Source of the DNA: Actinomycetes bacterium
GTDB taxonomy: Bacteria; Actinomycetota; Acidimicrobiia; Acidimicrobiales; JAKAVM01
Length of the DNA: 20,470 nt
Assembly (NCBI GenBank): GCA_021817065.1
Contig: JAKAWH010000054.1
Coordinates: 1 to 20,470, forward strand
Direction of reading: 5' to 3'
Positions within the stretch are counted from its first letter, which is position 1; the number at the start of each line of letters is the position of its first letter. Both the position numbers and the translations under genes were made by a program. Below, in pieces: positions 102 to 12,826 of the stretch. The notes beneath the pieces were generated by a model, which was not told where the DNA came from, did not search any database, and saw only the letters and a program-made list of their open reading frames with translations.

Positions 102-127
102 CGAGTGAATGCGCAGGTAGGAGGGCA

Positions 128-1005: not shown

Positions 1006-1034
1006 GCTCCCCTCCGCGTCAAACGGAGGGGAGC
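1006..1034 (-). terminator. Candidate intrinsic terminator on the minus strand
   Basis: GC-rich 11-bp perfect stem gctcccctccg / cggaggggagc with a 7-nt loop. On the minus strand it is followed by the U-rich tract AUUUCGAUUGUCUUC. It lies in an ORF-free region. Confidence 0.3.
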
Positions 1035-1356
1035 CAACCCGAGAGCGTTGCGAGTCACTCCGAATCACAGTCGGCACTGCACGGCAGCACCTCCTGCTGC
1101 GACGGTTCGGGGAAACCCCTGCCCTCACCTGTATTTGTCGCCGAAACAGACCGGGATCTTTCACCCCGTGGGGAAAAATCGGCACACGAGCTGAAGAATC
1201 AGTTGGTGGGTGATCACACTGATGGATGACTTGACGCCGCCGCTGACTTCTCATATGCTTCGCGTCGGGTAGACGAAGTCGAACTGCGACGGCGGCAGAG
1301 TCAACCAGTTGAATAACGGTTGACCGGGGAGCATTGCGTTCCAGAAGGGCAGGACG

Positions 1357-2103
1357 ATGACGCACCTATCATGGCTGCGTGCAGCACGAGCAGCTGGCTG
1401 CGTGGCCGCAGCTGGGGCCCTCCTCTTGTTATCCACTGGTGCTGCTTATGCTGGGCAGTATGGCACCTACAATGGTGCTGCTGCAGCGCGCTACGCGGAC
1501 ACCTACTGGAGCAATTACAACATCGACTACGCCAGCTTCGGGGGGACAGACTGCACCAATTTTGTTTCCCAGGCACTCAACTCAGGCCCAGGTAATGCGG
1601 AGGACTATGGCAAGCCATGGGAACCGACGTATCTCCAGGAGCCGTTATACAACTACCCCTCGGTGGTTGATAACCCGGGTGATCTCTCATACTGGTATGG
1701 AGAACTGACTGGTTACGGTGCCAACTACTATTCCAACACATGGACTGTCGCTCCAGACCTCTTCTATTTCCTGACCTTTTACGACGGTTCTAGCTCCTAT
1801 TTCACCTATTCCTTCGACTATTATCAGAACGGAACTGCTCCTTCGATACCACCTTCAAATGCCCTGGGCGACCCCTTCTTCTACAATTGGGATGCAAGGG
1901 ATAACGGTGAGGGAATCTACGGTATCGATCACGCCACCATCACCGCCTATGGAGGCTGGGGTACCGACGGCACCTGGGGAACCGAGGTCGATGCCCACGA
2001 CTCCAATAGACAGCACGTGTTCTGGACGTTGAGATTCGTGCAAAATCCATCGAATCCCTATTGGCCCACGGAGGAGGTATTCACCGATCATGTCGTTAGC
2101 TGA
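1357..2103 (+). CDS. Secreted putative amidase, Amidase_6 / NlpC-P60-related domain
   Basis: N-terminal signal peptide MTHLSWLRAARAAGCVAAAGALLLLSTGAAYA|GQ. Motif YADTYWSNYN...FGGTDCTNFVSQAL matches the catalytic-Cys core (GGDCTNFVSQ) of the putative amidase (Amidase_6) family. Tyr/Gly/Asn-rich mature region with a C-terminal His (IDHATITAY). RBS-like gaagggcagga lies upstream of the ATG. Confidence 0.75.
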   Translation: MTHLSWLRAARAAGCVAAAGALLLLSTGAAYAGQYGTYNGAAAARYADTYWSNYNIDYASFGGTDCTNFVSQALNSGPGNAEDYGKPWEPTYLQEPLYNYPSVVDNPGDLSYWYGELTGYGANYYSNTWTVAPDLFYFLTFYDGSSSYFTYSFDYYQNGTAPSIPPSNALGDPFFYNWDARDNGEGIYGIDHATITAYGGWGTDGTWGTEVDAHDSNRQHVFWTLRFVQNPSNPYWPTEEVFTDHVVS

Positions 2104-2887
2104 TATGAGCCACCAGTCCACTAACCGCCGACGATTCGGCCAACGAGCGCGAGGAATGCTTGTGGTGAGCGCCGTGGCAGCGGGCGCCGGCTTCGGTGCG
2201 TCACTGGGGGTCGCGCACGGACAAGGAAATGACAGTGCCAAAGAAGCCGCTGTGAAGCAAGTATTCCTGGAAGCCCAAGTTCTTGGGGAGAATGAAGGGG
2301 CACCAGCTCCAGCAGGTCTCGCCAAATCCGCCGATTGGGCAGTCCATGGAGATTCCCTCGTCCACACCAAGAACGGCGACCGCCTCGAGAACCCCGGCCA
2401 CTCTTGGGTCGACGACTCCGGTCATGTATTGGGACTCTCAGCCGCAGAGGTCGCCCAGATCACCTCCCAGCAGGATGCAGAGGCAGATGCCATCCTCGCT
2501 CCTGGCAAGATCCGCACCAACTACCTTAACGCAATCAATGGCTGGGCAAAGAAAGGTGGTGAATTGGTGTCGTCGATGAGTCCTGCTGACGCGGTGTCGG
2601 CCATCAATAGCGTGGGTCCTGTTGGCGGTGCCGAAGTGGTCAAATGGGAGAGCATCGATATTGCTGGCACCACCGCTAGCGTCCACGCGGTGATGAAGAT
2701 TTGGAACGAGAACGACCAAGCCACACTCGACGGTCAGGGGAACCTACATGTAGCCACTGAGGTGGCATCCGGATACGGCGACTCCTATGCTACCTTGCAA
2801 GAGACTCCCTCCGGCACCTGGCAAATCGTTTCCATGGATACAGAACCTTCCGATGCCAACGGCAATACTGACGTCGCTTCCGGGTAG
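2090..2887 (+). CDS. Secreted hypothetical protein with a possible Tat signal (NRRRFGQ then a hydrophobic stretch)
   Basis: ATG overlaps the stop of the upstream gene by 14 nt, which suggests an operon. N-terminus has an RR motif followed by VVSAVAAGAGFGASLGVAHG. GC3-rich codon usage consistent with neighbouring genes. No recognisable catalytic motif. Confidence 0.6.
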   Translation: MSLADMSHQSTNRRRFGQRARGMLVVSAVAAGAGFGASLGVAHGQGNDSAKEAAVKQVFLEAQVLGENEGAPAPAGLAKSADWAVHGDSLVHTKNGDRLENPGHSWVDDSGHVLGLSAAEVAQITSQQDAEADAILAPGKIRTNYLNAINGWAKKGGELVSSMSPADAVSAINSVGPVGGAEVVKWESIDIAGTTASVHAVMKIWNENDQATLDGQGNLHVATEVASGYGDSYATLQETPSGTWQIVSMDTEPSDANGNTDVASG

Positions 2888-3575
2888 CTCGACAAGGACT
2901 GCTCCCTCCGGGCGCCGACGGGGACGACTATCCAAGCTTTGCAGAACCAGCTTCGTCTGGGCCGTGGTAGCCCTGGTGACCGCCATCGTTATTGTCGTAG
3001 TTATACCCAAGCAAAGTGCGACGACAGCTGCCGGGGAGAAGTCGGAGGTCCGCGCCGCTTTAGTACGTGCGGACACCCTGCGACTCATGATCGGTTCTCC
3101 CTGGCTCGCATCTCCCTCTCATTGGTCCATCGCAACCGGCACGTCCAGGGCTTCGTGGAACACCGGTGTTGGCACCAAGCCGATCCATCCATCATCAAAC
3201 CTGCTCGGAGCGATGGGCCGTGAACAGGGCTCTCTCATCAGCCAGTGGATGGGATCGTCAGTGGCAAGCAGTACTCGGTCACAGTTGGCTTCGGCCATCG
3301 GGGTCGACACCTCACGGGAGATCTTCCCTTGGGTTGCTCAGGTCTACGGTGTGTCCACGCAAACCATTGATATATCGGGCAACCAGGCAGGAATCCGGGC
3401 GAAGGTCTTTGCATGGCAGGGAGGTACGGTTCCCACCAGAAGCGGTCCCAAGCTTCTCAAATTGCGAATGGAGCTCGACGAGTACGCAACGTTCAAAATG
3501 GTTGGTGGGCACTGGCGAGAAGTGAGCGATCGAAGCTACGAGCACCCAGTCAGCGGGAATCCGGGGAACCTGTAA
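2787..3575 (+). CDS. Single-pass membrane-anchored hypothetical protein (alternative start ATG 2853)
   Basis: Long ORF in operon with the two upstream genes. Hydrophobic helix FVWAVVALVTAIVIVVVI follows a basic stretch RRRGRLSKL. No in-frame ATG lies downstream of the preceding stop, so the start must overlap the upstream gene. Confidence 0.5.
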   Translation: MLPCKRLPPAPGKSFPWIQNLPMPTAILTSLPGSSTRTAPSGRRRGRLSKLCRTSFVWAVVALVTAIVIVVVIPKQSATTAAGEKSEVRAALVRADTLRLMIGSPWLASPSHWSIATGTSRASWNTGVGTKPIHPSSNLLGAMGREQGSLISQWMGSSVASSTRSQLASAIGVDTSREIFPWVAQVYGVSTQTIDISGNQAGIRAKVFAWQGGTVPTRSGPKLLKLRMELDEYATFKMVGGHWREVSDRSYEHPVSGNPGNL

Positions 3576-3604
3576 ACCACGGGGGTACATCGAAGCCACT
3601 ATAG

Positions 3605-3634
3605 CCATCTCCGAGTATATCGACTCGGAGATGG
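3605..3634. promoter_or_regulatory. Perfect 12-bp inverted repeat CCATCTCCGAGT-(ATATCG)-ACTCGGAGATGG overlapping the start codon of the zinc-ribbon gene
   Basis: The arms are exact reverse complements. ATG 3631 lies inside the right arm. No U-tract follows, so an operator or translational hairpin is more likely than a terminator. Confidence 0.45.
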
Positions 3635-4011
3635 CGGGTGTGGGATGCTCGGTACCTATGCCCAAGACACCCCCAGCACGACTTGCCTCCTACGAGCACC
3701 GCTACCGAGATCTCGCCCGGCAGCTCTCTGAGATCGGCTGGATCGCTTCGGGCAGCGTGGCGTACCGCCCCGAGCGCTGTGGCAAGTCGAACTGCGCCTG
3801 CCGCTCGGACCCCGCACGGCTACACGGGCCCTACTGGCACTTCACCGCCAAGGTCGACGGCAAGACGGTGAACAAGCGCCTTTCCGAGCGTGAAGCCCGC
3901 CTATATCAACAGTGGATCGCCAACTACCGCACGGTGCGCGCTCTCCTCGGCGAGATGCGCGAGATCGCTGCCAAGGCCCAGGCCCTGATCCTCGCCGAGG
4001 ATGACGTCTGA
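3631..4011 (+). CDS. Small CxxC/CxC zinc-ribbon hypothetical protein (conserved actinobacterial DUF-type)
   Basis: 126 aa. Motif RCGKSNCACRSD...HGPYWHFTAKVDGKTVNKRLSEREARLYQQWIANYR resembles a widespread small actinobacterial protein family of unknown function. The C-terminus is predicted helical. Confidence 0.6.
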   Translation: MAGVGCSVPMPKTPPARLASYEHRYRDLARQLSEIGWIASGSVAYRPERCGKSNCACRSDPARLHGPYWHFTAKVDGKTVNKRLSEREARLYQQWIANYRTVRALLGEMREIAAKAQALILAEDDV

Positions 4012-4150
4012 CTCCGCCCGCAACAGGCAGTGTGCCGCTTCACCTGAAACCCGCCGCCCCACCTCACGCCGCCGGGCCTGAAGTGCTTGAAACACAGGGC
4101 GAATCGGTCATCCGAGCACGTGTGAGTGCCATTTCACGCTTGATTCAGGA

Positions 4151-4376
4151 TTAAGTTCCCTGGGGCGGTTGTCTGCTCGTCTTTTTCTGGCTCTGACCGA
4201 AATAGGTGACCCAACAACCGGGAGGTGGGTCATCTGTGGCAGGAAGCATCCGCCTGGTCAGGGGCGACGATGTGGGAACTCCGTGTCTGCCTGGGTCGTG
4301 ATTCTCGGGGAAAAGTGCGCCATCTGCATCGCAGGTTCCGTGGTACCAAGCGCCAAGCCGAGAGGGACCTGGCCGC
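4151..4376 (+). repeat. Copy B of the ~225-bp direct repeat
   Basis: See copy A. Same orientation, 4023 bp downstream. Identity decays at both edges. Confidence 0.85.
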
Positions 4377-4420
4377 AAGTGGAGCGGGGGAGTGCCCAAC
4401 CCGATTGCCGACGCCGAGCT

Positions 4421-4497
4421 GGCCGATCGAGGGCCGATCGAGGGCCGATCGAGGGCCGATCGAGGGCCGATCGAGGGCCGATCGAGGGCCGATCGCG
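4421..4497. repeat. Tandem 11-bp repeat (GGGCCGATCGA)x~7
   Basis: ggccgatcga then gggccgatcga x5 then gggccgatcgc. Each unit carries the palindrome CGATCG. The 11-bp period is close to the DNA helical repeat. Intergenic, ~150 bp upstream of the XRE gene. Confidence 0.9.
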
Positions 4498-4515
4498 ATA
4501 ATGATAGTATTATCG
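4496..4515. promoter_or_regulatory. AT-rich inverted repeat CGATAAT-GATAGT-ATTATCG, a candidate operator or -10 region upstream of the XRE regulator
   Basis: 7-bp arms are exact reverse complements. A strongly AT-rich island in GC-rich DNA that contains TAGTAT. About 130 bp upstream of ATG 4643. Confidence 0.4.
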
Positions 4516-4642
4516 AATGGCGCAGAAAGCCTGGTCGGTTGAGTTTCACCCGGCCTGCGGGAAGTGGGCTGGCAGACGAGAGATTCGAAGGGCACTTGGC
4601 AAACATGGAACCCGACAAGCAACTACACAGAAGAAGGCCACG

Positions 4643-4969
4643 ATGAAGATGAACCAGTGGGAGAAGAAGGTCCTCGCCAAGCCGGGCGCGCCTCAGCGGG
4701 TAGATGATATCGAAGACGAGCTTCGGCTCGCCACCGCCCTGACGGCGCTTCGAGAAGAGTCGGGCCTCAGCCAGCGGGAATTGGCCGAACGGCTCGGAGT
4801 TTCTCAGCCCAGGATCGTGGCGATCGAACATGCTCGCAATGTCACTCTCGACGTTCTCGAACAATACCTCGAAGGGCTCGGAGGGACTCTGGAGGTCTCG
4901 TTCTTCAAGGGGAACCGCAAGACCCGGCTCTTGGGGAATCAACGCCCGAGCGGCCGCAAGGCGAGCTGA
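4643..4969 (+). CDS. XRE-family helix-turn-helix transcriptional regulator
   Basis: HTH_3 signature ESGLSQRELAERLGVSQPRIVAIEHARN. RBS aagaagg lies 5 nt upstream of ATG. The ORF track extends further upstream to 4517 but no RBS or homology supports that. Confidence 0.75.
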   Translation: MKMNQWEKKVLAKPGAPQRVDDIEDELRLATALTALREESGLSQRELAERLGVSQPRIVAIEHARNVTLDVLEQYLEGLGGTLEVSFFKGNRKTRLLGNQRPSGRKAS

Positions 4970-5079
4970 CGACTCGCGGACCTTGGAAGTTGGGCGAAGA
5001 CCCAATATTTCACCCAATAGATCCGTTTGGTGGCGTTCTCCACCGAACCTTCCGCCCCGCGGCGTGGCACAGTAGGAGT

Positions 5080-6411
5080 GTGAGCCGCGTCGCCCCGGCC
5101 GAGGTCCACGAACGCCTCGGCAAGCACCTCCTGGTGGACCGCTCGTGCCTGGTCTACGACGCCGAGCGCAGCCAGGGCTCGTGGGTGGTGGACGAGAGGA
5201 CTGGAGCGCGGTACCTGGACCTGAATACCTTCCACGCGTCCTCACCCCTTGGGAGCAATCCACCCGGCATGGTGGACGACCCGGAATTCATGGATCTGCT
5301 GGGCAGGATCGCAGCCAACAAGCCGGCCAATCCGGACATCTACTCCACCTATCTCTGCGAATTCGTCGACACCTTCGTGAGGGTTCTCGGTGACCCGGAT
5401 CTCCCGCACCTCTTTTTCGTCGAAGGGGGTGCCCTGGCAGTCGAGAACGCGCTCAAAGCAGCCTTCGACTGGAAGAGCCGTTTCAACGAAGCCAGCGGAC
5501 GCGATCCTGCCCTGGGGACCCGAGTGCTCCACCTGAGCAGCGCCTTCCACGGGCGCAGCGGCTACACGCTTTCGCTGACCAATACCGATCCCGCCAAGAC
5601 GGATAGGTTCCCCACCTTCGATTGGCCGCGTGTGGAGGTGCCTGCGATTCGATTTCCTCTCGATCGGCACCGGGACGAAGTCCTTGCAGCCGAACGGCGG
5701 GCCTTGGACCAGGCCCGGGAAGCTTTCGATCGCTTCCCTCACGACATCGCGTGTTTCATCGCCGAACCGATCCAGGGGGAAGGCGGCGACAATCACATGC
5801 GCCCGGAATTCCTTCAGGCGATGCAGCAAATGTGCCATGAGAACGATGCATTGTTCGTACTCGACGAAGTCCAGACCGGAGTCGGCCTCACCGGGACGCC
5901 GTGGGCGTACCAGCAGCTCGGCCTGGAACCCGACATCGTGGTGTTCTCGAAAAAGGTGCAGCTGGGCGGGATCATGGCTGGACGCCGCCTCAACCGGGTT
6001 CCCGGCAACGTGTTCCGGACGAGGGATCGGATCAACTCGACCTGGGGAGGTGGTTTGGTGGACATGGTCCGGTCCCGGCGGATCCTCGAGATCATCGAAC
6101 GCGACGGTGTCTTTGCTCATGCCGCAGAGACCGGCGCCTGGTTGGTGGCACAGCTCGATGCCCTCCAGGGCAGGCATGTGCACTCGGTGAGCAATGTCCG
6201 GGGACGCGGCCTGATGACGGCGTTCGACCTGCCGGACCGGTCCTCCCGGGACCTGTTCCTCTCGATGCTCCGTGATCGTGGGCAGGTCCTGGCACTTGCC
6301 TGCGGTGAGCTCTCGGTTCGCTTCCGCCCGGCCCTCACCGTCACCCGGGAGGAGCTCCAACATGGGCTCGACGCTCTCGACCGTTGCCTGAAAGCCCTGG
6401 AGTCCGGTTGA
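5080..6411 (+). CDS. lat: L-lysine 6-aminotransferase (lysine epsilon-aminotransferase), class-III PLP aminotransferase
   Basis: Strong recalled similarity along its length to mycobacterial/streptomycete LAT: PHLFFVEGGALAVENALKAAFDWKSR, HGRSGYTLSLTN, DIACFIAEPIQGEGGD, FDEVQTGVGLTGTPWAYQQL, INSTWGG and FSKK (PLP lysine). Start assigned to GTG 5080 with aggag immediately upstream. The ORF could begin as early as TTG 4990. Confidence 0.85.
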   Translation: MSRVAPAEVHERLGKHLLVDRSCLVYDAERSQGSWVVDERTGARYLDLNTFHASSPLGSNPPGMVDDPEFMDLLGRIAANKPANPDIYSTYLCEFVDTFVRVLGDPDLPHLFFVEGGALAVENALKAAFDWKSRFNEASGRDPALGTRVLHLSSAFHGRSGYTLSLTNTDPAKTDRFPTFDWPRVEVPAIRFPLDRHRDEVLAAERRALDQAREAFDRFPHDIACFIAEPIQGEGGDNHMRPEFLQAMQQMCHENDALFVLDEVQTGVGLTGTPWAYQQLGLEPDIVVFSKKVQLGGIMAGRRLNRVPGNVFRTRDRINSTWGGGLVDMVRSRRILEIIERDGVFAHAAETGAWLVAQLDALQGRHVHSVSNVRGRGLMTAFDLPDRSSRDLFLSMLRDRGQVLALACGELSVRFRPALTVTREELQHGLDALDRCLKALESG

Positions 6412-7907
6412 CCACCTACCGGTCTCTCAATCCTTCGCACCTCGACGACGTTGTGGCTGAGGTCACTCTCGCCACCGCCGATGAGCTGGTTGCGGCGTGC
6501 TCGGTAGCCCGGCAGGCGCAAGGCCTTTGGGCAGGGACTCCACCCCCCGTGCGCGGCAAGGTCATCTCGGCGGTCGGCCGAATCGCCGAGTCCAACAAGG
6601 AGGCCCTCGCCCGCTTGGTAACCAGGGAGGTCGGCAAGCCTTGGACCGAATCGCTCGGGGAGGTGCAGGAGATCATCGACACCTGCGATTTCTTCCTCGG
6701 CGAGGGACGACGACTATACGGGCAGACCGTGCCGAGCGAGTTGCCCGACAAGCAGCTCTTCACCTACCGGGTGCCCGTGGGGGTGACCGTGGTGATCACC
6801 GCCGGAAATTTTCCGGTCGCGGTTCCCTCCTGGTACCTGGTCCCTGCACTCCTGTGCGGCAATGTCGTGGTGTGGAAAGCGGCGGAGTACTCGGTTGCCT
6901 GTGCGCAGGCCCTTCGGGACATCTTCGTGGCAGCCGGTGTTCCCGATGGCGTCTTGCAGCTTGTCGTCACCGATGGCGCCACCACCTTCGGCGGGTTGGG
7001 CCAGGGCCTCGATGCAGGCGTGATCGACAAGATCGGATTCACCGGCTCCAGCGCGGTCGGAAGGCGCATCGCAGAGCTGGCAGGGCGTCACCTGCAGTCT
7101 CCGTGCCTGGAACTAGGCGGTAAGAACCCGATGGTCATCGCCCCTGATGCCGATGTCGAGCTTGCGGTCGAGGGGGCGCTCTTTTCCGGATTCGGCACCG
7201 CCGGGCAGCGGTGTACTTCCCTGGGCACAGTCATAGTCCATACATCGAGGCACGATGAATTCGTCGAGCTTTTCGATCGGAGGGTATGTAGCATTCCGGT
7301 GGGCGATCCCAGCCGGGATGTAGTGATGGGTCCTCTGATGAGCGACGTGTTCGCCAGACGGTTCGAGGAGTACCTGGGCTGGCTGGAGCCCCATCACCGG
7401 CTGCTGGGATCGGGCGGCATTGGCCGGATCGGCCCGGACAATCCGCGGAGCGGATTCGTGGGGGACCCGGATGCGGGCCTGTACTACCATCCGATCATCG
7501 TCGACGGCGTCCTGCCGGACGATCGGATCTTCCGGGAGGAGTGCTTCGGGCCCATGGTGGGTGTGGCGACCTACCGGGATCTCGGCGAGGCGATCGAACT
7601 GTCCAACGCTCCCGGATACGGGCTGACCGCCTCCGTCTACACCAATGATCCCAAGACAGCGTTCCGCTTCCGCTCTGGGGTGGGAGCAGGGATGGTCAGC
7701 ATCAACAATTCGACCTCTGGAGCCGAAGCACACCTTCCATTCGGAGGCAACGGCCGGAGTGGCAACGGGAGCAGGCAGTCGGGTACGTGGGCACTCGACC
7801 AGTTCACTCGCTGGCAGGCGGTGAACTGGGATTACTCGGGTCAATTGCAACGAGCACAGATGGATGTCGGAACGGTGGAGCCCGATTTCGGCTACCGACT
7901 TCCCTGA
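6408..7907 (+). CDS. pcd: Piperideine-6-carboxylate (alpha-aminoadipate semialdehyde) dehydrogenase, ALDH superfamily
   Basis: Aldehyde dehydrogenase motifs: VWKAAEYS, GFTGSSAVGRRI, catalytic LELGGKNP and CTS (GQRC), EECFGP. Classic lat-pcd gene order. TTG start 6408 forms a TTGA overlap with the lat stop (TGA 6409-6411). Alternative TTG at 6384. Confidence 0.8.
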   Translation: MTTYRSLNPSHLDDVVAEVTLATADELVAACSVARQAQGLWAGTPPPVRGKVISAVGRIAESNKEALARLVTREVGKPWTESLGEVQEIIDTCDFFLGEGRRLYGQTVPSELPDKQLFTYRVPVGVTVVITAGNFPVAVPSWYLVPALLCGNVVVWKAAEYSVACAQALRDIFVAAGVPDGVLQLVVTDGATTFGGLGQGLDAGVIDKIGFTGSSAVGRRIAELAGRHLQSPCLELGGKNPMVIAPDADVELAVEGALFSGFGTAGQRCTSLGTVIVHTSRHDEFVELFDRRVCSIPVGDPSRDVVMGPLMSDVFARRFEEYLGWLEPHHRLLGSGGIGRIGPDNPRSGFVGDPDAGLYYHPIIVDGVLPDDRIFREECFGPMVGVATYRDLGEAIELSNAPGYGLTASVYTNDPKTAFRFRSGVGAGMVSINNSTSGAEAHLPFGGNGRSGNGSRQSGTWALDQFTRWQAVNWDYSGQLQRAQMDVGTVEPDFGYRLP

Positions 7908-10140
7908 GCTTCCACAGATGAATGCGCGAGCCGAAGCGGTCGATTCGCATTTTCTCTCCGCAGCGAGGGCTCTCACCGCCGTCGAGCATCGCCACCCGGA
8001 CGCACCGGTGCGCGACGGCACCACGCTCACCGGGCGACGAGCGCGGGAGCTGTTCGACGCGCAACTCGCCAGCCGCCACCTCGATCTGGTCGCCCGGGAA
8101 CTGCGTGCGGACGGCTCCGGGTATTACACGATCGGGTCCAGTGGTCACGAGGCGAACGCGGCTCTCGCCGCGGCACTCCGGCCGGATGACCCGGCGCTGC
8201 TCCACTACCGATCGGGTGCTTTTTACGTGGCGCGGGCTGCCCAGCGGGAGTGTACCGATCCCATTCGCGACGTGCTGGCGGGAGTGTGCGCGGCTGCTGA
8301 TGAGCCGGTCGCCGGGGGGCGGCACAAGGTTTTCGGCCATCCGCAGCTCGCGGTGATACCGCAAACCTCGACCATCGCGTCCCACTTGCCCCGGGCAGTG
8401 GGGCTGGCTTTTTCAATCGAGCGAGCTGCACGGCTAGGCGTACCGTCACCATGGGATGCGGACTGCATCGTGGTCGCAAGTTTCGGCGACGCGTCGGTGA
8501 ACCATTCCACCGCGGCGGGGGCGATCAACACCGCATGTTGGATCGCCTACCAGGGCCTCCCCCTTCCCTTGTTGCTGGTGTGCGAGGACAACGGCTTCGG
8601 CATCAGCGTTCCCACTCCACCCGGGTGGGTGCGGGCCGCGTCCTGCTCCCGTCCCGGATTGCGCTACATCGAAGCCGACGGTTGCGATATCGCCACAACA
8701 TGGGATGCCGCGGTCGAGGCGGTGTCCTACGTGCGTAACCGGCGTGCACCGGCTTTTCTTCACCTTTCGATGGTCCGATTCCTCGGTCATGCCGGGGCCG
8801 ATGCAGAGGTCGCGTACCGCACTCCGGCAGCACTGGCGGCTGATCTGGAACGGGACCCCTTGGTGAACACTGCTCGGCTCCTAGTCGAGTCCGGCCAGGT
8901 CGATCCCGGCCAGGTGATCGCCGCCTACGAGGCGATGCGTTCGACGGTGGGCGACACCGCGCGGAAGATGACCCGGGCACGCCACCTGGAAAGTGCCGCG
9001 GAGATCATGGCGCCGCTCGCTCCGCGGCATCCCGACAGGGTGCTACAGGTTGTTGCAACGCCGCCCGCCCCTGCACTGCGCCTGCAAACCCACCGGGGGC
9101 GCCTTCCCGAGGAGCAGGGTGGGTTCACCCTCGCACAATCGGTGAATGCCGCCCTGGCCGACGGGCTCGCGTCCCACCCGAACATGATCGTGTTCGGGGA
9201 AGACGTCGCGCTGAAGGGTGGCGTGTACGGAGTCACCGGCGGGTTGGTCCGGCAGGTCGGAGCTGCCCGTATCTTCGACACCCTCCTGGACGAGCAATCG
9301 ATCCTCGGCCTGGCTCTCGGAGCGGGCCTAGCCGGACTCCTTCCGGTTGCCGAGATCCAGTACCTAGCCTACTTGCACAATGCGGAGGACCAGGTCCGGG
9401 GAGAAGCTGCGACCCAGCAGTTCTTCAGCAACGGCCAGTTCCGCAATCCGATGGTGGTTCGTGTCGCGGCTTTTGGTTACCAGCAGGGATTCGGCGGTCA
9501 TTTTCACAACGACAACTCGGTCGCCGTCCTGCGGGACGTTCCCGGTGTGGTTATCGCCTCACCATCGCGCCCCGACGACGCCGCCGCGATGCTGCGGACC
9601 TGCCTGGCTGCTGCCTCGGTCGACGGATCGGTGTGCGTGTTCTTGGAACCGATCGCCCTATACCATCGCCGCGACCTGCACGACGAGGGTGACCGCGGCT
9701 GGCTGGACCGTTACGCGCCTCCCTCCGAATGGGCCTCTTCTCACGTCCCGATCGGCTCGGCGCGCGTCCACGGCGACGGGGAAGACCTGTGCATGATCAC
9801 CTTCGCTAACGGTGTTCCGATGTCGCTTCGTGCGTCGCGCCGATTGGCAGATTCGCGAATCGGGGTACGGGTGGTGGATCTTCGCTGGCTTGCACCACTC
9901 CCGGTGCGAGATATCCTGCGCGAAGCAGAAGCGACTGGTCGGGTGCTGGTCGTCGACGAAACTCGGCGGACTGGGGGAGTCTCGGAGGGGATTCTGGCCG
10001 CTCTGAACGGTGGAGGATTTGGCGGGACGGTTAAGCGGATCGCCTCGCAAGACAGCTTCATCCCGCTGGGGGATGCCGCCTCGCACGTACTGGTGTCCGA
10101 GGACCAAGTGGTCTCGGCTGCCCGGGAACTGTGCTCGTAG
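7864..10140 (+). CDS. TPP-dependent 2-oxoacid dehydrogenase E1 component, fused alpha/beta subunits
   Basis: N-terminal half has the E1-alpha TPP-binding motif GDASVNHSTAAGAINTACW...LLLVCEDNGFGISVP. C-terminal half has the E1-beta/transketolase-like pyrimidine-binding region FGEDVALKGGVYGVTGGL...RIFDTLLDEQSILGLALG and a C-terminal domain. Overlaps the pcd 3' end by 44 nt (or starts at ATG 7918). Confidence 0.75.
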   Translation: MSERWSPISATDFPELPQMNARAEAVDSHFLSAARALTAVEHRHPDAPVRDGTTLTGRRARELFDAQLASRHLDLVARELRADGSGYYTIGSSGHEANAALAAALRPDDPALLHYRSGAFYVARAAQRECTDPIRDVLAGVCAAADEPVAGGRHKVFGHPQLAVIPQTSTIASHLPRAVGLAFSIERAARLGVPSPWDADCIVVASFGDASVNHSTAAGAINTACWIAYQGLPLPLLLVCEDNGFGISVPTPPGWVRAASCSRPGLRYIEADGCDIATTWDAAVEAVSYVRNRRAPAFLHLSMVRFLGHAGADAEVAYRTPAALAADLERDPLVNTARLLVESGQVDPGQVIAAYEAMRSTVGDTARKMTRARHLESAAEIMAPLAPRHPDRVLQVVATPPAPALRLQTHRGRLPEEQGGFTLAQSVNAALADGLASHPNMIVFGEDVALKGGVYGVTGGLVRQVGAARIFDTLLDEQSILGLALGAGLAGLLPVAEIQYLAYLHNAEDQVRGEAATQQFFSNGQFRNPMVVRVAAFGYQQGFGGHFHNDNSVAVLRDVPGVVIASPSRPDDAAAMLRTCLAAASVDGSVCVFLEPIALYHRRDLHDEGDRGWLDRYAPPSEWASSHVPIGSARVHGDGEDLCMITFANGVPMSLRASRRLADSRIGVRVVDLRWLAPLPVRDILREAEATGRVLVVDETRRTGGVSEGILAALNGGGFGGTVKRIASQDSFIPLGDAASHVLVSEDQVVSAARELCS

Positions 10141-10174
10141 CTGCGTCCAGGCGGGCCGTTTCACGGCCGGGTGG

Positions 10175-10312
10175 CCTCAGGGGCGCCGGGTCCGGCAGGT
10201 GCGAAGGACGTTCCCTCAGGGGCGCCGGGTCCGGCAGGTGCGAAGGAGGTTCCCTCAGGGGCGCCGGGTCCGGCAGGTGCGAAGGACGTTCCCTCAGGGG
10301 CGCCGGGTCCGG
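10175..10312. repeat. 39-bp tandem repeat x3.5 (cctcaggggcgccgggtccggcaggtgcgaaggacgttc) between the convergent E1 and thioesterase genes
   Basis: Copies at 10175, 10214, 10253 and a partial at 10292. One substitution (gacg/gagg) in copy 2. The last partial copy overlaps the final codons of the minus-strand thioesterase gene. Confidence 0.9.
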
Positions 10313-10986
10313 AGGCGGTGGGCGGGTATCACCGCGAACTCACCTTCGGCTTCGCAACACGTGTGTCCCTCCTGGATCAACTTCCCTCGGCTGATCACCC
10401 GCCGCTCGTCTTTGGCAACCACCTCGGCCTCGAAGCGGGACTCGATCCCGATCAGGGTGGGGCGGAGATAGCGGACGGTCAGGCATACGGTCGGACCGGA
10501 AGTACCGGCGATCTGATTGGCCGCGGTGAGAACGATGTCGAAGGTGGAGGCGATCACCCCTCCATGAACCCACCCGGGCCCGCCCTCGTAGGCGGTGGTG
10601 AAGTGGGCGGTGCCGATCGCGAGCGGTGGGTCGAATGCGATGGTCACCGGCAGTGCGATCGGATTGAACTGGCCGACCACCGGGTCGTAGGGCATCGCTC
10701 CGTGCATGATGGTCCCGGAAAAAGGCTGACCGTCCGTCTCTCCAACCCCGGCCTTCGCTCCGGTCCCTTCTGTCTCTCCAACCCCGGCCGTCTCTCCGGT
10801 CCCTTCTGTCTCTCCAACCCCGGCCGGGTCGACGAAACGGGGGATGGGCGTATCGGGCACGAAGGAGCCCAGGAGGTCGGATATAGCGTCGATGCGGGAG
10901 ATCGCATCGGTGAGTGCTTCGGGCGGAGCAGCGCTGGTGACCGCACGGTCGATGAGGCTCCGGAGCGATTCGGCCAATCCGAACAT
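10294..10986 (-). CDS. PaaI/4HBT-family hotdog-fold thioesterase with an internal Gly/Glu/Thr-rich tandem repeat
   Basis: Motif HGGVIASTFDIVL (the conserved HGG of PaaI-type thioesterases). Start set at ATG 10986 (MFGLAESL) with ggaagg 5 nt upstream. The track ORF extends to 11085. Contains in-frame repeats AGVGETEGTGET. Confidence 0.7.
   Translation of the reverse strand: MFGLAESLRSLIDRAVTSAAPPEALTDAISRIDAISDLLGSFVPDTPIPRFVDPAGVGETEGTGETAGVGETEGTGAKAGVGETDGQPFSGTIMHGAMPYDPVVGQFNPIALPVTIAFDPPLAIGTAHFTTAYEGGPGWVHGGVIASTFDIVLTAANQIAGTSGPTVCLTVRYLRPTLIGIESRFEAEVVAKDERRVISRGKLIQEGHTCCEAEGEFAVIPAHRLRTRRP
10738..10825. repeat. In-frame 36-bp coding tandem repeat (2.4 copies) inside the thioesterase gene
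   Basis: ctctccaaccccggccNtcNctccggtcccttctgt repeated at 10738 and 10774, with a partial at 10810. Encodes GVGETEGTGETA-type 12-aa units on the minus strand. Confidence 0.85.
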
Positions 10987-11153
10987 CTCGCCTTCCCGGC
11001 CGGCCAGGATCGGATGAAAAGTGGGGCACGGAAGGAGCGGACCGCCCTCAGATGATCGTGCAGAAGTCGGCAAGGGCCCCAACATAGTTCCGGCTCGGCC
11101 GCAGAGGTACGACGACTAGGCTGAGCCCCAGGGCCCCAGAGGAGGTCGTGCCC

Positions 11154-11366
11154 GTGGTCGACAGTATGGATCAGCAGTTGGTGGGAACGGTGGGCCAAGT
11201 GACCGTCCCGATATCGAAGGACCGCCCGGGCGAGGTGATGCTCCCGGTTCGTGGAGGGACCGAAGCGTACGCCGCACTGTCCGACCAGCCGATCGCCAAG
11301 CACACCAAGGTGGTGGTGGTCGAATGCTTGTCCGGCCGTTCGGTCACCGTCACTCCATTCGACTGA
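11154..11366 (+). CDS. NfeD-family short protein (OB-fold beta-barrel domain), the usual partner of flotillin
   Basis: GTG start 8 nt after agaggagg (the track ORF begins at GTG 11148). Sequence VGQVTVPISKDRPGEVMLPVRGGTEAYAALSDQPIAKHTKVVVVE matches the NfeD C-terminal domain. Immediately upstream of the flotillin gene. Confidence 0.7.
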   Translation: MVDSMDQQLVGTVGQVTVPISKDRPGEVMLPVRGGTEAYAALSDQPIAKHTKVVVVECLSGRSVTVTPFD

Positions 11367-11392
11367 ACCGCATACACGAGGAGGCATAACGA

Positions 11393-12826
11393 ATGCTTTT
11401 CTGGCACGTTCCCGCGCCAAACGAGGCGCTTCTCATATCCGGTTCCCGGCGTCGCAGCCAGGAGACCCAGTTCCGGATCGTCACCGGTCACGGCTGCATC
11501 GTCTTCCCGATCAAGCAGAAGGCCCGTACCCTCTCCCTCGCTCTGCGCGAGTCGGAGGTCACCGAGGAATGTCTCACCACCCAAGGGATCCGCTTGCGCA
11601 TCCGGGCCATCGCCGCTTTCAAGGTCGGCGACGACCCGGTTTCCATCGCCAATGCAGCCCGGCGTTTCCTTGCAGAACAGGACCGGATGGAGGAGCTGGT
11701 CGGGCGGATCTTCGCCGGGCACCTCCGGTCGATCATCGGGAGCCTGACCGTCGAGGAGATCATCCGGGAGCGGGATCGCCTGGCTCAGGAGGTCAAGGAC
11801 GGTAGCCATGGCGAGATGGAGAAGCTGGGCATCGTGGTGGACTCGCTCCAGATCCAGGAGATCGAGGACGCGACCGGCTACATCAACAACATCGCCGCTC
11901 CTCACGCAGCGGCGGTAGCCAGCCAGGCCCGGATCGCCGCCGCCCAGGCCGACCAGGAGGCGACCCAGCGCGAGCAGCAGGCGGCAGCGCTGAAGTCGGA
12001 ATACGTACGCGACGCGGAGATCAAGCAGGCCGGGTTCGCTGCCGAAGTGGAGAGGGCCAAGGCCCAGGCGGCACAGGCAGGCCCCCTGGCGGAGGCCCAG
12101 GCGTCCCAGGAAGTGATCGCTCAGCAGACCCTACTCGCCGAGAAGCAAGCCGGTTTGACCGACAAGCTGCTCGAATCCGACGTGCGGCGTCCTGCCGATG
12201 CCGAGGCGTATAAACAGCGCACTCTGGCAGAAGCGAGCCGGGACAGCACCAAGATGGCAACCGAGGCGGAGGCTTTTCGCCAGCGGACCATGGCGGAAGC
12301 CCAGCGGGATACGGTGAAGTTCAGCACGGAAGCCGAAGCCAACCGGCAACGCACCATCGCTGCCGCCGAGGCGGAAGCGGCGACGGTTCGGGCGGAAGCT
12401 GAGGCCACCGCCCACAAGCACCAGGCCGACGGTGAGGCCTACGCTCAGCGCACGGTAGCAGCCGCCGACGCGGAATCCATCAACGCCCGCTCGGCCGCGT
12501 TAGACGACGGGAACCAAGCGCTCATTGCGGCCAACAAGCTGGTTGATTTGCTCCCGTCGTTGGTGGAAGCTGCCGCGCGGGGAATCTCGGCTTCCAACCT
12601 GACCGTCTTGAACGGCACGGACGGGGTCAATCAGGTGGTGGCCGGCGTAGTCGGCCAAGGCCTCACTATCTACGAGACCCTCCGCAAGTCCCTGGCCACA
12701 GCGTCGACCCAGCACGACGGGCTCGGGGCCCTGGCCCTTCCGGGTACCGACAGCGAGCGGGACGGCCCGGTAGCACGCGACGGCGTGCGAGCTGGCGGGG
12801 AGGCGGGAGCGCCCGGCGTCGATTGA
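11393..12826 (+). CDS. Flotillin-like SPFH/band-7 protein (FloT/YqiK type)
   Basis: N-terminus MLFWHVPAPNEALLISG and a band-7 domain. A long Ala/Glu/Gln-rich coiled-coil with EA repeats (AEAYKQRTLAEA..., AEAFRQRTMAEAQ...) is typical of flotillins. Strong RBS gaggagg sits 7 nt before ATG. Confidence 0.85.
   Translation: MLFWHVPAPNEALLISGSRRRSQETQFRIVTGHGCIVFPIKQKARTLSLALRESEVTEECLTTQGIRLRIRAIAAFKVGDDPVSIANAARRFLAEQDRMEELVGRIFAGHLRSIIGSLTVEEIIRERDRLAQEVKDGSHGEMEKLGIVVDSLQIQEIEDATGYINNIAAPHAAAVASQARIAAAQADQEATQREQQAAALKSEYVRDAEIKQAGFAAEVERAKAQAAQAGPLAEAQASQEVIAQQTLLAEKQAGLTDKLLESDVRRPADAEAYKQRTLAEASRDSTKMATEAEAFRQRTMAEAQRDTVKFSTEAEANRQRTIAAAEAEAATVRAEAEATAHKHQADGEAYAQRTVAAADAESINARSAALDDGNQALIAANKLVDLLPSLVEAAARGISASNLTVLNGTDGVNQVVAGVVGQGLTIYETLRKSLATASTQHDGLGALALPGTDSERDGPVARDGVRAGGEAGAPGVD

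What the first reader, a model, noticed from the sequence alone, without database searches (positions are those of the whole stretch)
4643..10140. Lysine-catabolic lat-pcd pair coupled to a fused alpha/beta TPP-dependent E1 dehydrogenase under an XRE regulator
lat and pcd are joined by a TTGA stop/start overlap, which is the classic lysine to P6C to alpha-aminoadipate route. The next ORF overlaps pcd and encodes a single ~750-aa polypeptide fusing E1-alpha (TPP-binding) and E1-beta halves of a 2-oxoacid dehydrogenase. It could be a dedicated 2-oxoadipate (or related 2-oxoacid) dehydrogenase E1 that carries aminoadipate catabolism on toward glutaryl-CoA. A PaaI-type acyl-CoA thioesterase lies convergent just downstream. 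The regulator in front is XRE-type, not the Lrp-type regulator found with lat in mycobacteria. No E2/E3 or aminoadipate transaminase is in the window.
Basis: partly seen in the sequence, partly recalled or inferred. Interest (0 to 1): 0.55.

Follow-up and report, generated by a model that had tools for sequence, protein, structure and literature searches.

The report
Lysine-catabolic operon with fused E1
Three tightly packed genes of an uncultured actinobacterium encode the first two steps of lysine breakdown plus a single-chain thiamine enzyme; its neighbours in many other genomes suggest it converts 2-oxoadipate towards glutaryl-CoA, a step with no assigned gene in these bacteria, but this is an untested prediction.

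Summary
An XRE gene (4643-4969), lat (5080-6411), an ALDH (6408-7907, TTGA overlap with lat) and a fused alpha/beta E1 (probable start 7918, 10 nt after the ALDH stop; end 10140) lie on one strand.

- **lat:** passes its curated model.
- **ALDH:** it is not a canonical Pcd (328 bits against a cut-off of 730). It belongs to a sister clade of ALDH family 7, typified by Thermus ALDHTt, and shares the GQRCT and GEVQE motifs.
- **E1:** it has all three E1 domains, the ThDP motif and the catalytic Glu and His residues. It falls far below every PDH model cut-off and belongs to a large uncharacterised actinobacterial family.
- **Context in 80 genomes:** none of the 80 loci has an E2 or E3 motif nearby. 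In 22 loci of about a dozen lineages the E1 sits next to this ALDH or a true Pcd. These loci often also carry lat, an FAD amine oxidase, a GluDH-family enzyme or glutaryl-CoA dehydrogenase. Two loci read lat-ALDH-E1-gcdH.

The XRE regulator and the "PaaI-type" thioesterase are not conserved parts of the module. It is a moderately interesting, testable prediction.

The parts
4643..4969 (+). Small XRE-type HTH protein (108 aa from ATG 4643; the longest ORF starts at 4517). It is adjacent to the operon but is probably not a dedicated part of it.
   Evidence: Pfam HTH_3 46 bits, HTH_31 and HTH_37. The best NCBIfam match is a sub-threshold Y4mF/HipB-type antitoxin model (38 against 72). It is not found upstream of lat in L081, L082, P0008, L049 or L051.
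5080..6411 (+). lat, L-lysine 6-(epsilon)-aminotransferase. 443 aa from GTG 5080; the longest ORF starts at TTG 4990.
   Evidence: TIGR03251 LAT_fam 657.1 bits, above the cut-off of 520.8. 542 bits to M. tuberculosis LAT 2CIN over residues 34-465, with AEPIQGEGGD and the FSKK/FGKK segment aligned. Homologues are 443-445 aa.
6408..7907 (+). ALDH7-like aldehyde dehydrogenase of the ALDHTt clade. Predicted 2-aminoadipate-6-semialdehyde / P6C dehydrogenase. TTG start in a TTGA overlap with the lat stop.
   Evidence: Pfam Aldedh 422 bits. NF050084 pip_6_carb_DH is the best NCBIfam hit but scores 327.6 against a cut-off of 730. PDB matches: ALDHTt 6FJX 478 bits, Pcd 6RTR 279 bits, ALDH7A1 about 230 bits. 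GTAGQRCT and GEVQE are shared with Pcd. Orthologues lie next to lat, a DAO-type oxidase, the E1 and gcdH in other genomes.
7918..10140 (+). Fused E1-alpha/E1-beta ThDP-dependent 2-oxoacid dehydrogenase component. 740 aa from ATG 7918; the longest ORF starts at ATG 7864 (758 aa). Predicted 2-oxoadipate-specific E1.
   Evidence: E1_dh, Transket_pyr and Transketolase_C are all above gathering scores. The ThDP/Mg motif GDA-x26-EDNG, the alpha His (LGHAG), the beta Glu (FGEDV) and the beta His (HFHND) align with the solved E1s shown residue by residue (T. thermophilus and human BCKDH alpha; G. stearothermophilus and P. aerophilum PDH beta, T. thermophilus and P. putida BCKDH beta). The AF2 model has pLDDT 83 and pTM 0.85.
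10175..10312 (.). 39-bp x 3.5 tandem repeat. It fills the convergent spacer between the E1 stop and the thioesterase stop.
   Evidence: TRF score 269, 97% matches. Three copies with 0-1 mismatch, none expected by chance. Its function is unknown and no intrinsic-terminator pattern was found there.
10294..11085 (-). Hotdog-fold (4HBT) thioesterase-like ORF with an internal GVGETEGTG repeat. It is convergent with the E1. Membership in the module is not shown.
   Evidence: Pfam 4HBT 23.5 bits against 20.6; TIGR00369 18 bits against 36.6. No tblastn counterpart in the 80 related loci.

Best explanation
The window carries a compact lysine-catabolic operon, lat-aasadh-E1. The proposed pathway has these steps.

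1. Shown by family membership: LAT moves the epsilon-amino group of L-lysine to 2-oxoglutarate. This gives 2-aminoadipate-6-semialdehyde, in equilibrium with piperideine-6-carboxylate.
2. Inferred from motifs and context: the translationally coupled ALDH7-like enzyme oxidises this to L-2-aminoadipate.
3. Inferred, gene not in the window: a transaminase, or a GluDH-family dehydrogenase as seen in relatives, makes 2-oxoadipate.
4. Inferred from conserved catalytic residues and from gene neighbourhoods in other genomes: the fused alpha-beta E1, presumably a homodimer equivalent to an alpha2beta2 E1, decarboxylates 2-oxoadipate on ThDP. It then reductively glutarylates a lipoyl group supplied in trans by an E2 encoded elsewhere. 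Actinobacterial OdhA/KGD does the same with E2p lipoyl domains. The product is glutaryl-CoA.
5. Glutaryl-CoA dehydrogenase converts glutaryl-CoA to crotonyl-CoA. Its gene is adjacent to this E1 family in several relatives.
For: - lat passes its equivalog model and matches the solved Mtb LAT.
- The ALDH carries the GQRCT and GEVQE signatures shared with Pcd 6RTR. Its closest characterised families are Pcd and ALDH7.
- The trio is conserved with 4-nt overlaps in the closest relatives.
- In 80 species-level genomes holding this E1 family, 22 loci from about a dozen lineages place lysine/pipecolate-to-glutaryl-CoA genes within about 6 kb of the E1. The lineages include Pseudonocardia, Actinophytocola, Kutzneria, Saccharopolyspora, Actinomadura, Spirillospora, Kribbella, Jiangellaceae, Micromonosporaceae, Mycobacterium, Solirubrobacterales and several MAGs.
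- Sixteen of those loci have the window-type ALDH (65-71% identity). Three more (L005, L017, L033) have a canonical Pcd that passes NF050084 at 777-800 bits against 730. L015 has a 38%-identity ALDH clustered with them. Two different ALDH7-type enzymes thus occupy the same slot.
- Nine loci have the same DAO-type FAD oxidase beside either ALDH type. Four have a GluDH-family enzyme.
- gcdH scores 616 bits to M. smegmatis GCDH 3SF6. It is directly adjacent to the E1 in L049 and L051 (lat-ALDH-E1-gcdH), L058 and L059.
- L068 reads amino-acid permease-ALDH-E1.
- On a crude NJ tree these loci are spread over about half of one orthologous family.
- Both histidines and the glutamate used by E1s are retained. 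By recollection, the histidines act in reductive acylation of lipoamide and the glutamate in cofactor activation.
- The family-invariant GGRHKVFG replaces the GRQMP segment of BCKDH E1-alpha.
- There is precedent for an actinobacterial E1 that borrows lipoyl domains in trans (PMC10415282).
Against: - No enzyme of this family has been assayed, and specificity is inferred from neighbourhoods only.
- About 58 of the 80 loci show no lysine-related neighbour.
- Some contexts point elsewhere. In Streptosporangiaceae the E1 sits beside the leucine liu cluster (MCC alpha/beta, HMG-CoA lyase, isovaleryl-CoA dehydrogenase). In L014, L031, L047 and L048, a methylmalonate-semialdehyde dehydrogenase and a class-III aminotransferase lie a few kb away. 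In Mycobacterium it sits between an arginase-fold gene and a CoA-transferase/TesB pair.
- No E2 or E3 motif was found near the E1 in any of the 80 loci, so the partner is unknown.
- The aminoadipate to 2-oxoadipate step has no gene in the window.
- The ALDH fails the curated Pcd threshold.
- The role of the GGRHKVFG segment in substrate binding is my conjecture.
Confidence: 0.55

Rival explanations
1. The fused E1 is a branched-chain (or broad-range) 2-oxoacid dehydrogenase E1, as the automatic name '2-oxoisovalerate dehydrogenase E1 component' says. Its position after lat-ALDH would then reflect only co-regulated amino-acid catabolism.
For: - JGI names most homologues this way.
- The best solved match of the alpha half is the T. 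thermophilus branched-chain E1-alpha 1UM9_A.
- In Streptosporangiaceae the gene lies beside the leucine liu cluster.
- In L014, L031, L047 and L048 a methylmalonate-semialdehyde dehydrogenase (TIGR01722 730 bits) and a class-III aminotransferase are a few kb away.
Against: - The match to BCKDH E1-alpha is only 58 bits. The beta half is slightly closer to PDH beta (158 bits) than to BCKDH beta (146/132 bits).
- The liu linkage is confined to one family, and the TetR and liu genes change orientation relative to the E1.
- No E2 is ever adjacent, which by general knowledge is unusual for bkd operons.
- The recurrent, lineage-independent pairing is with Pcd-type ALDHs and gcdH.
- The invariant GGRHKVFG differs from the GRQMP of BCKDH.
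Confidence: 0.15
2. The protein works without an E2, as a non-oxidative 2-oxoadipate decarboxylase that releases glutarate semialdehyde. The neighbouring ALDH oxidises this to glutarate (in addition to, or instead of, acting on aminoadipate semialdehyde). A CoA-transferase then makes glutaryl-CoA.
For: - No E2 or E3 motif lies near the E1 in any of 80 loci.
- An ALDH is the most frequent neighbour, often without lat.
- Mycobacterium loci have a family III CoA-transferase and a TesB-type thioesterase directly downstream.
- A hotdog thioesterase lies next to the E1 in the window.
Against: - Both histidines implicated in reductive acylation of lipoamide and the whole Transketolase_C domain are conserved.
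- The lat-ALDH-E1-gcdH operons of L049 and L051 contain no CoA-transferase or ligase.
- A canonical Pcd can take the ALDH slot, which fits aminoadipate-semialdehyde oxidation.
- Actinobacterial E1-type enzymes are known to use lipoyl domains supplied in trans.
Confidence: 0.12
3. lat-ALDH only supplies 2-aminoadipate or P6C (for stress adaptation or a secondary metabolite, as in beta-lactam producers). 2-Oxoadipate, if formed, is handled by the housekeeping OdhA/KGD, and the fused E1 has an unrelated substrate.
For: - M. smegmatis KGD forms post-decarboxylation intermediates from 2-oxoadipate (PMC10415282).
- From my own knowledge, M. tuberculosis has lat and pcd but no such E1.
- Most loci of the E1 family lack lysine genes.
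Against: - No biosynthetic genes flank the trio in the window or in its closest relatives.
- Direct adjacency of the E1 to gcdH in four lineages, and to Pcd-type ALDHs in many, is hard to explain if the E1 has nothing to do with the aminoadipate branch.
Confidence: 0.1

Closest known systems
Mycobacterial lat / lrpA / pcd locus (M. tuberculosis Rv3290c-Rv3293) and the lat-pcd pairs of beta-lactam-producing actinomycetes
   Same: The first enzyme is the same (542 bits to Mtb LAT 2CIN). The logic is also the same: lysine to aminoadipate semialdehyde/P6C to 2-aminoadipate.
   Different: - The ALDH is not the canonical Pcd but an ALDHTt-like paralogue.
- The genes are translationally coupled in one operon.
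- A fused E1 follows.
- The adjacent regulator is XRE-type, not Lrp. Lrp genes do accompany lat in L044, L049 and L051.
- The layout of the Mtb locus is from my own knowledge.
Human 2-oxoadipate dehydrogenase E1 (DHTKD1, E1a) with DLST and DLD
   Same: The proposed reaction and pathway position are the same: 2-oxoadipate to glutaryl-CoA, upstream of GCDH. Like DHTKD1, the enzyme has no dedicated E2 and would borrow one.
   Different: It belongs to a different E1 class. DHTKD1 is an OGDH-like homodimeric E1. phmmer found no DHTKD1 chain at E <= 0.001. Foldseek relates the two only at fold level (TMq 0.64, 14% identity). If the prediction holds, this is an analogous recruitment from the alpha/beta class, not an orthologue.
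Heterotetrameric (alpha2beta2) E1s of BCKDH and Gram-positive PDH (1UM9, 1QS0, 1DTW, 1W85)
   Same: The domain set, ThDP/Mg motif, activating Glu and both catalytic His are the same. The modelled beta half superposes on 1W85_B (TMt 0.88, 30% identity).
   Different: - The alpha and beta halves are fused in one chain.
- The alpha half is very divergent (58 bits).
- GGRHKVFG is found instead of GRQMP.
- It is never encoded next to an E2.
- It falls below all curated PDH model thresholds.
Actinobacterial OdhA/KGD
   Same: It is an E1 activity that depends on lipoyl groups provided in trans by E2p, in the same phylum (PMC10415282). It is a precedent for an E1 without its own lipoyl-bearing E2.
   Different: OdhA is an E1o-type enzyme fused to its own succinyltransferase domain. 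The protein here has no acyltransferase domain.
Thermus thermophilus ALDHTt (PDB 6FJX) and ALDH7A1 / Pcd
   Same: The window ALDH aligns end to end with ALDHTt (478 bits), including the long C-terminal arm (QLQRAQMD against RLQLAQMD). It shares GQRCT with Pcd. The ALDHTt authors suggested family 7 membership (PMC6127216).
   Different: The physiological substrate of ALDHTt is unknown. Here the operon context points to aminoadipate semialdehyde. The window ALDH fails the curated Pcd model.

Membership tests
L-lysine 6-transaminase (TIGR03251 LAT_fam) | Score above the curated equivalog cut-off | tested here: met
   657.1 bits against 520.8, full-length 1-433/433
L-lysine 6-transaminase (TIGR03251 LAT_fam) | Full-length similarity to a structurally and biochemically characterised LAT, with the PLP-lysine segment and the AEPIQGEGG segment retained | tested here: met
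   542 bits to Mtb LAT 2CIN. FSKK aligns with FGKK, and AEPIQGEGGD with AEPIQGEGGD. The identity of the catalytic residues is from memory.
L-piperideine-6-carboxylate dehydrogenase (NF050084) / ALDH family 7 | Score above the curated equivalog cut-off | tested here: not met
   327.6 bits against 730, barely above the GucD (321.9) and dioxovalerate DH (318.5) models. ALDHs beside the same E1 in L005, L017 and L033 do pass (777-800 bits).
L-piperideine-6-carboxylate dehydrogenase (NF050084) / ALDH family 7 | Arg-Cys-Thr around the catalytic cysteine (R301-C302-T303 of ALDH7A1, which by recollection bind the aminoadipate carboxylate) and the GEVQE segment | tested here: met
   The window has GTAGQRCTS and GEVQEIIDTCDF. 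Pcd 6RTR has GTAGQRCTT and GEVQEMIDICDF.
L-piperideine-6-carboxylate dehydrogenase (NF050084) / ALDH family 7 | Activity on aminoadipate semialdehyde / P6C | not testable with these tools
   Context only: translational coupling to lat, and interchange with canonical Pcd beside the same DAO oxidase and E1.
2-oxoacid dehydrogenase E1, alpha/beta (heterotetrameric) class | E1_dh (alpha), Transket_pyr and Transketolase_C (beta) domains | tested here: met
   69.9, 67.9 and 68.2 bits, all above gathering scores, in one chain. AF2 pLDDT 83.
2-oxoacid dehydrogenase E1, alpha/beta (heterotetrameric) class | ThDP/Mg motif GDG-x(25-30)-N, cofactor-activating Glu of beta, active-site His of alpha and beta | tested here: met
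   GDA...EDNG, FGEDV, LGHAG and HFHND align with 1UM9, 1DTW-type and 1W85 chains. These residues are invariant in 40 homologues.
2-oxoacid dehydrogenase E1, alpha/beta (heterotetrameric) class | Encoded with, and acting on, a lipoyl-bearing E2 (and E3) | tested here: not met
   No plausible E2 (DHRxxDG) and no E3 (CxNxGCxP[ST]K) motif hit was found in the window or in 80 related loci. The few DHRxxDG hits lack the usual hydrophobic pair, and the only E2-sized ORF (L060) has no Pfam domain. The genes could lie elsewhere in the genome, which cannot be checked here.
Pyruvate dehydrogenase E1 alpha / beta (TIGR03181, TIGR03182, NF008854, NF006667) | Score above curated cut-offs | tested here: not met
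   81.5 against 411; 67 against 394; 140 against 454; 138 against 321
2-oxoadipate dehydrogenase E1 (DHTKD1 / OGDH-like class) | Sequence homology to the E1o/E1a homodimeric class | tested here: not met
   No DHTKD1 or OGDH chain among the phmmer PDB hits at E <= 0.001. Foldseek gives 14% identity, fold level only. The claim is 'may work like', not 'is a member'.
2-oxoadipate dehydrogenase E1 (DHTKD1 / OGDH-like class) | Oxidative decarboxylation of 2-oxoadipate to glutaryl-CoA | not testable with these tools
   Indirect evidence only: gcdH is adjacent to the E1 in L049, L051, L058 and L059.
XRE-family regulator dedicated to the lat operon | Conserved linkage of the regulator gene with lat in relatives | tested here: not met
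   tblastn with the XRE protein gave no hit in 80 loci. No gene upstream of lat in L081, L082 or on the P0008 contig carries an XRE-type HTH domain.
PaaI-type hotdog thioesterase (TIGR00369) | Score above the curated cut-off | tested here: not met
   18 bits against 36.6. Only the generic Pfam 4HBT passes (23.5 against 20.6).

The most novel reading that the evidence does not exclude
The fused alpha/beta E1 family is the dedicated 2-oxoadipate dehydrogenase E1 of Actinobacteria. The family has at least 599 genome hits and 989 representative clusters at E <= 1e-30. It would have been recruited independently of animal DHTKD1 from the BCKDH/PDH-type class, and it would operate as an orphan E1 that plugs into the phylum's unusual shared E2p/OdhA lipoyl system. 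This would complete a lat (or pipecolate oxidase) - AASADH - E1 - GcdH route from lysine to crotonyl-CoA. The ALDHTt clade would be its aminoadipate-semialdehyde dehydrogenase.
Probability: 0.45. Interest if true: 0.65.

Novelty: new variant of a known kind. Interest (0 to 1): 0.5.

Why it matters
**Gap in the pathway.** To my knowledge, the step from 2-oxoadipate to glutaryl-CoA has a dedicated enzyme only in animals (DHTKD1). The route worked out in Pseudomonas putida goes through 2-hydroxyglutarate instead. Four full-text searches for a bacterial 2-oxoadipate dehydrogenase or a fused E1 returned nothing relevant.

**What confirmation would give:**
- a very common actinobacterial gene, now labelled 'thiamine pyrophosphate-dependent enzyme' or '2-oxoisovalerate dehydrogenase E1', would get a function;
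- the ALDHTt structure would get a physiological substrate;
- pathway-reconstruction tools would gain a missing lysine-catabolism step;
- it would be a second example, after OdhA, of an actinobacterial E1 that depends on lipoyl domains supplied in trans.

**Testability.** The prediction is directly testable with cultivable carriers such as Kribbella, Kutzneria, Actinomadura and Pseudonocardia thermophila.

Tried and rejected
- **Gene calling.** My first two attempts on the 80 loci (longest ORF with a GC3 filter; GC1 > GC2 filter) picked antisense shadow ORFs, for example L024 6495-10079. I replaced them with a codon log-odds model trained on the E1 genes. Start codons from it are approximate. 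It missed the minus-strand ALDH of L034, which tblastn shows.
- **E2/E3 motif search.** Six loci had a DHRxxDG hit. Five have charged or polar residues at the two variable positions. The sixth (L060, DHRTVDG, 618 aa), the only E2-sized ORF, has no Pfam domain. These were rejected as chance matches.
- **Toxin remnant upstream of XRE.** I suspected that the 42 residues upstream of the XRE start (4517-4642, 'AWSVEFHPA...') are a remnant of a RelE/HigB-type toxin. That would make the XRE protein an orphan antitoxin. Pfam finds nothing even at E <= 10, so the idea is unsupported and was dropped.
- **PDH replacement.** I considered that the fused E1 replaces PDH E1 in Micromonosporaceae, because it sits beside DUF3052 and AhpE (neighbours of aceE in mycobacteria, from memory). 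A normal AceE (PDH_E1_M, 277 bits) is present in three of those loci: L045, L057 and L076. The idea was rejected.
- **Foldseek against PDB.** It gave only fold-level matches (transketolase, DXPS, DHTKD1, OdhA) and does not discriminate substrate.
- **Pocket analysis.** I could not do a residue-level analysis because model coordinates are not exposed. The meaning of GGRHKVFG stays conjectural.
- **Promoter/terminator scan.** Not informative: counts are at chance level, and actinobacterial promoters are poorly covered.
- **Literature.** Searches for a fused E1 or a bacterial 2-oxoadipate dehydrogenase found nothing relevant. One search failed on a term that was too short.

Full report
**What is in the sequence**

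Between 4643 and 10140 four genes lie on the + strand.

- *XRE gene.* A 108-aa XRE-type HTH protein is encoded at ATG 4643 to 4969.
- *lat.* A 110-nt spacer follows, then lat. The longest ORF starts at TTG 4990. GTG 5080 gives 443 aa, the length called for the orthologues in related contigs (443-445 aa).
- *ALDH.* The lat stop (TGA 6409-6411) overlaps an in-frame TTG (6408-6410). GGAG lies 5 nt upstream of that TTG. The equivalent 4-nt overlap is called in L081 and on the P0004 contig.
- *E1.* The ALDH ends at 7907. The longest E1 ORF begins at ATG 7864, a 44-nt overlap. Similarity to homologues starts within the first ten residues of the version that begins at ATG 7918. The likely arrangement is therefore a 10-nt gap.
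- *Signals.* A consensus scan finds no promoter-like site. Terminator-like sites are no more frequent than in shuffled sequence, and none lies at a junction.
- *Downstream.* A 153-nt convergent spacer is filled by a 39-bp x 3.5 tandem repeat. It separates the E1 from a hotdog-fold ORF on the minus strand.

**lat**

The protein passes the curated L-lysine 6-transaminase model (TIGR03251, 657 against 520.8 bits). It aligns over its whole length with the solved M. tuberculosis enzyme (542 bits).

**The ALDH**

It is a full-length aldehyde dehydrogenase (Pfam 422 bits). The curated P6C-dehydrogenase model is its best NCBIfam hit but far below threshold (328 against 730). It is hardly better than the alpha-ketoglutarate-semialdehyde models.

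Against solved structures, its closest relative by a wide margin is Thermus thermophilus ALDHTt (6FJX, 478 bits). Next come a 'semialdehyde dehydrogenase Pcd' (6RTR, 279 bits) and ALDH7A1/antiquitin (about 230 bits).

The residue-level alignments show two shared segments: GTAGQRCT around the catalytic cysteine, and GEVQExID. In ALDH7A1 the Arg and Thr flanking the cysteine hold the aminoadipate carboxylate; this point is from my recollection of the ALDH7A1 structures, not tested here. The ALDHTt paper says the enzyme may belong in family 7 and implies that its true substrate is unidentified (PMC6127216).

So the gene is not a member of the curated Pcd family. It is a member of a sister clade with the family-7 substrate-anchoring signature.

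**The E1**

One chain carries E1_dh, Transket_pyr and Transketolase_C. Alignment with solved E1 subunits shows four retained features:

- the ThDP/Mg motif (GDA-x26-EDNG);
- the alpha-subunit histidine (LGHAG against PHSS of T. thermophilus);
- the cofactor-activating glutamate (FGEDV);
- the beta-subunit histidine (HFHND against ELHSD).

All are invariant in 40 homologues. The two histidines are the ones implicated in reductive acylation of lipoamide in human BCKDH; this is from my recollection of the work behind entries 1OLU and 1OLX.

The AF2 model is confident (pLDDT 83, pTM 0.85). Its beta half superposes on PDH E1-beta (TMt 0.88).

The protein does not belong to a characterised subfamily. 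It scores 81-140 bits against PDH models whose cut-offs are 321-454. The alpha half reaches only 58 bits to the best solved E1-alpha. A family-invariant GGRHKVFG stands where BCKDH E1-alpha has GRQMP. I cannot show that this segment lines the pocket.

The family is large. The word-indexed search filled its 8000-candidate limit, and all 8000 scored E <= 1e-10. At least 599 species-level genomes have a hit. There are 989 representative clusters at E <= 1e-30, with fused relatives down to about 36% identity. Sources name it only 'thiamine pyrophosphate-dependent enzyme' or '2-oxoisovalerate dehydrogenase E1 component'.

**Comparative context, the main new evidence**

The four closest relatives (71-75% identity) keep Aminotran_3-Aldedh-E1. 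At 68-69% identity the E1 can stand alone.

I fetched 80 genome loci and called genes with a codon model trained on the E1 genes. I clustered the products and named the recurrent neighbours with NCBIfam, Pfam and PDB searches.

Twenty-two loci from about a dozen lineages carry genes of the lysine/pipecolate to aminoadipate to glutaryl-CoA branch within about 6 kb of the E1:

- Sixteen have the window-type ALDH (65-71% identity).
- L005, L017 and L033 have, in the same position, a canonical Pcd that passes NF050084 (777-800 against 730). L015 has a 38%-identity ALDH clustered with them.
- Nine have the same DAO-type FAD amine oxidase beside either ALDH type. It is plausibly a pipecolate oxidase but passes no curated model.
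- Four have a GluDH-family enzyme that could deaminate aminoadipate.
- Four besides the window have lat (L001, L044, L049, L051). An Lrp/AsnC regulator is nearby in L044, L049 and L051.
- A glutaryl-CoA dehydrogenase (616 bits to M. smegmatis GCDH 3SF6, 380 bits to human GCDH) is directly adjacent to the E1 in L049 and L051 (lat-ALDH-E1-gcdH), L058 (ALDH-gcdH-E1) and L059.
- L068 reads amino-acid permease-ALDH-E1.

On a crude NJ tree these loci are scattered through roughly half of a single, taxonomy-following family rather than forming a paralogous subgroup. For single-copy genes in genomes of several thousand genes, direct adjacency arising independently in several orders is far beyond chance. 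I did not compute a formal probability.

**What argues against, or remains unexplained**

- Most loci show no lysine gene.
- In Streptosporangiaceae the E1 lies beside the leucine liu cluster. The linkage is confined to that family and its orientation varies.
- L014, L031, L047 (M. aquaticum) and L048 have a methylmalonate-semialdehyde dehydrogenase and a class-III aminotransferase a few kb away.
- Six Mycobacterium-type loci read arginase-fold protein - E1 - family III CoA-transferase - TesB, mostly with a HAD gene further upstream. The CoA-transferase's best, sub-threshold match is mesaconyl-CoA isomerase. I cannot explain this layout.
- In Micromonosporaceae the E1 sits beside DUF3052 and AhpE in eight loci. 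A normal AceE lies a few kb away in three of them, so the E1 does not replace PDH E1.
- None of the 80 loci has an E2 or E3 motif. By general knowledge this is unusual for alpha/beta-type E1s.
- The lack of a linked E2 is, however, compatible with actinobacterial biology. [quoted passage not shown]
- The same paper notes that KGD itself can process 2-oxoadipate to a ThDP intermediate. This keeps open the rival that the housekeeping enzyme does this job.

**Regulator and thioesterase**

The XRE protein has no counterpart in the 80 loci. No gene upstream of lat in the closest relatives carries an XRE-type HTH domain. It follows a perfect 11-bp x 6.8 tandem array and one copy of a 225-bp direct repeat, in a region with signs of rearrangement. 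I see no evidence that it controls the operon.

The thioesterase passes only the generic 4HBT model and is not conserved with the E1.

**Verdict**

The most likely reading (about 0.55) is a lysine-catabolic operon in which LAT and an ALDH7-like dehydrogenase make 2-aminoadipate. After a deamination encoded elsewhere, the fused E1 feeds 2-oxoadipate into a lipoyl/E2 system encoded elsewhere to give glutaryl-CoA.

- *Shown:* gene structure, LAT identity, E1 architecture and catalytic residues, and the neighbourhood statistics.
- *Inferred:* the ALDH substrate, the E1 substrate, and the E2 partner.

The enzyme would work like DHTKD1 but is not a member of that family. It is a divergent, fused member of the alpha/beta E1 class.

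I found no paper describing it. The library is incomplete, so prior description cannot be excluded.

Noticed in passing
window 126-351 and 4149-4372: A direct repeat of about 225 bp, about 95% identical, with copies 4023 nt apart. The first copy starts 24 nt after tRNA-His (28-102). The pair brackets an amidase-domain ORF (1357-2103), two ORFs without family matches (2090-2887, 2787-3575) and a DUF6788 protein (3631-4011). It looks like the scar of an insertion or duplication next to a tRNA gene.
   Followed up: partly
window 4421-4495: A perfect tandem array of an 11-bp unit (GGCCGATCGAG x 6.8, 100% matches). It lies directly after the second copy of the 225-bp repeat and 148 nt upstream of the XRE start. 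Its function is unknown.
   Followed up: no
window 10175-10312 and 10736-10826: A 39-bp x 3.5 tandem repeat lies in the convergent spacer between the E1 and the thioesterase. A 36-bp x 2.5 repeat lies inside the thioesterase ORF, where it encodes GVGETEGTG-type peptide repeats. The region appears rich in recent tandem duplications.
   Followed up: partly
window 15827-15901, 16016-17185, 19846-20379: tRNA-Lys(ctt) is followed 115 nt later by a tyrosine integrase gene. A transposase HTH fragment lies further on. This is probably the edge of an integrated element.
   Followed up: no
window 12895-14439 and 14497-15609 (minus strand); 14399-14486: Two adjacent paralogous PAS-GAF sensor ORFs with histidine-kinase remnants. 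A 44-bp tandem duplication (98% identical) lies at their junction.
   Followed up: no
window 11130-11366 and 11393-12826; L081 765-2243: An NfeD-like ORF plus a flotillin (SPFH) gene lie downstream of the module in the window. In the closest genomic relative, an NfeD-Band_7 pair sits immediately upstream of lat instead. This may be local synteny with rearrangement.
   Followed up: no
PDB 6FJX (ALDHTt) against window 6408-7907: The Thermus ALDH, whose physiological substrate is not identified in its structure paper, is the closest solved relative of the window ALDH. Orthologues of the window ALDH sit beside lat, a DAO-type oxidase and gcdH. This suggests that the ALDHTt clade acts on aminoadipate semialdehyde/P6C.
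   Followed up: partly
L032, L053, L066, L067, L070, L073 (Mycobacterium and relatives), about 6000-12300 in each locus (L053 about 800-5150): A conserved arrangement: arginase-fold protein - fused E1 - family III CoA-transferase (best, sub-threshold match mesaconyl-CoA isomerase) - TesB-type thioesterase. A HAD hydrolase gene usually lies further upstream. In L053 only the HAD - arginase-fold - E1 part lies on the short contig. The related locus L047 lacks the arginase-fold gene. No pathway I know explains this set.
   Followed up: partly
L037, L041, L045, L057, L072, L076, L078, L079 (Micromonosporaceae): In eight loci the fused E1 is directly followed by DUF3052 and an AhpE-like peroxiredoxin. 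A normal aceE lies a few kb away in three of them (L045, L057, L076). From memory, this is the aceE-DUF3052-ahpE neighbourhood of mycobacteria. L082 also has an AhpC/TSA gene right after the E1.
   Followed up: partly
L006-L013, L018, L019, L025, L026, L028, L039, L042 (Streptosporangiaceae): The fused E1 lies beside the leucine-catabolic liu cluster (methylcrotonyl-CoA carboxylase alpha/beta, HMG-CoA lyase, isovaleryl-CoA dehydrogenase, TetR) in varying orientation. This may be family-specific synteny or a hint of broader substrate range.
   Followed up: partly
L001 4992-7948: In this MAG the lat and ALDH orthologues upstream of the E1 are split into two and three tblastn pieces. The cause is either assembly indels or pseudogenisation.
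   Followed up: no
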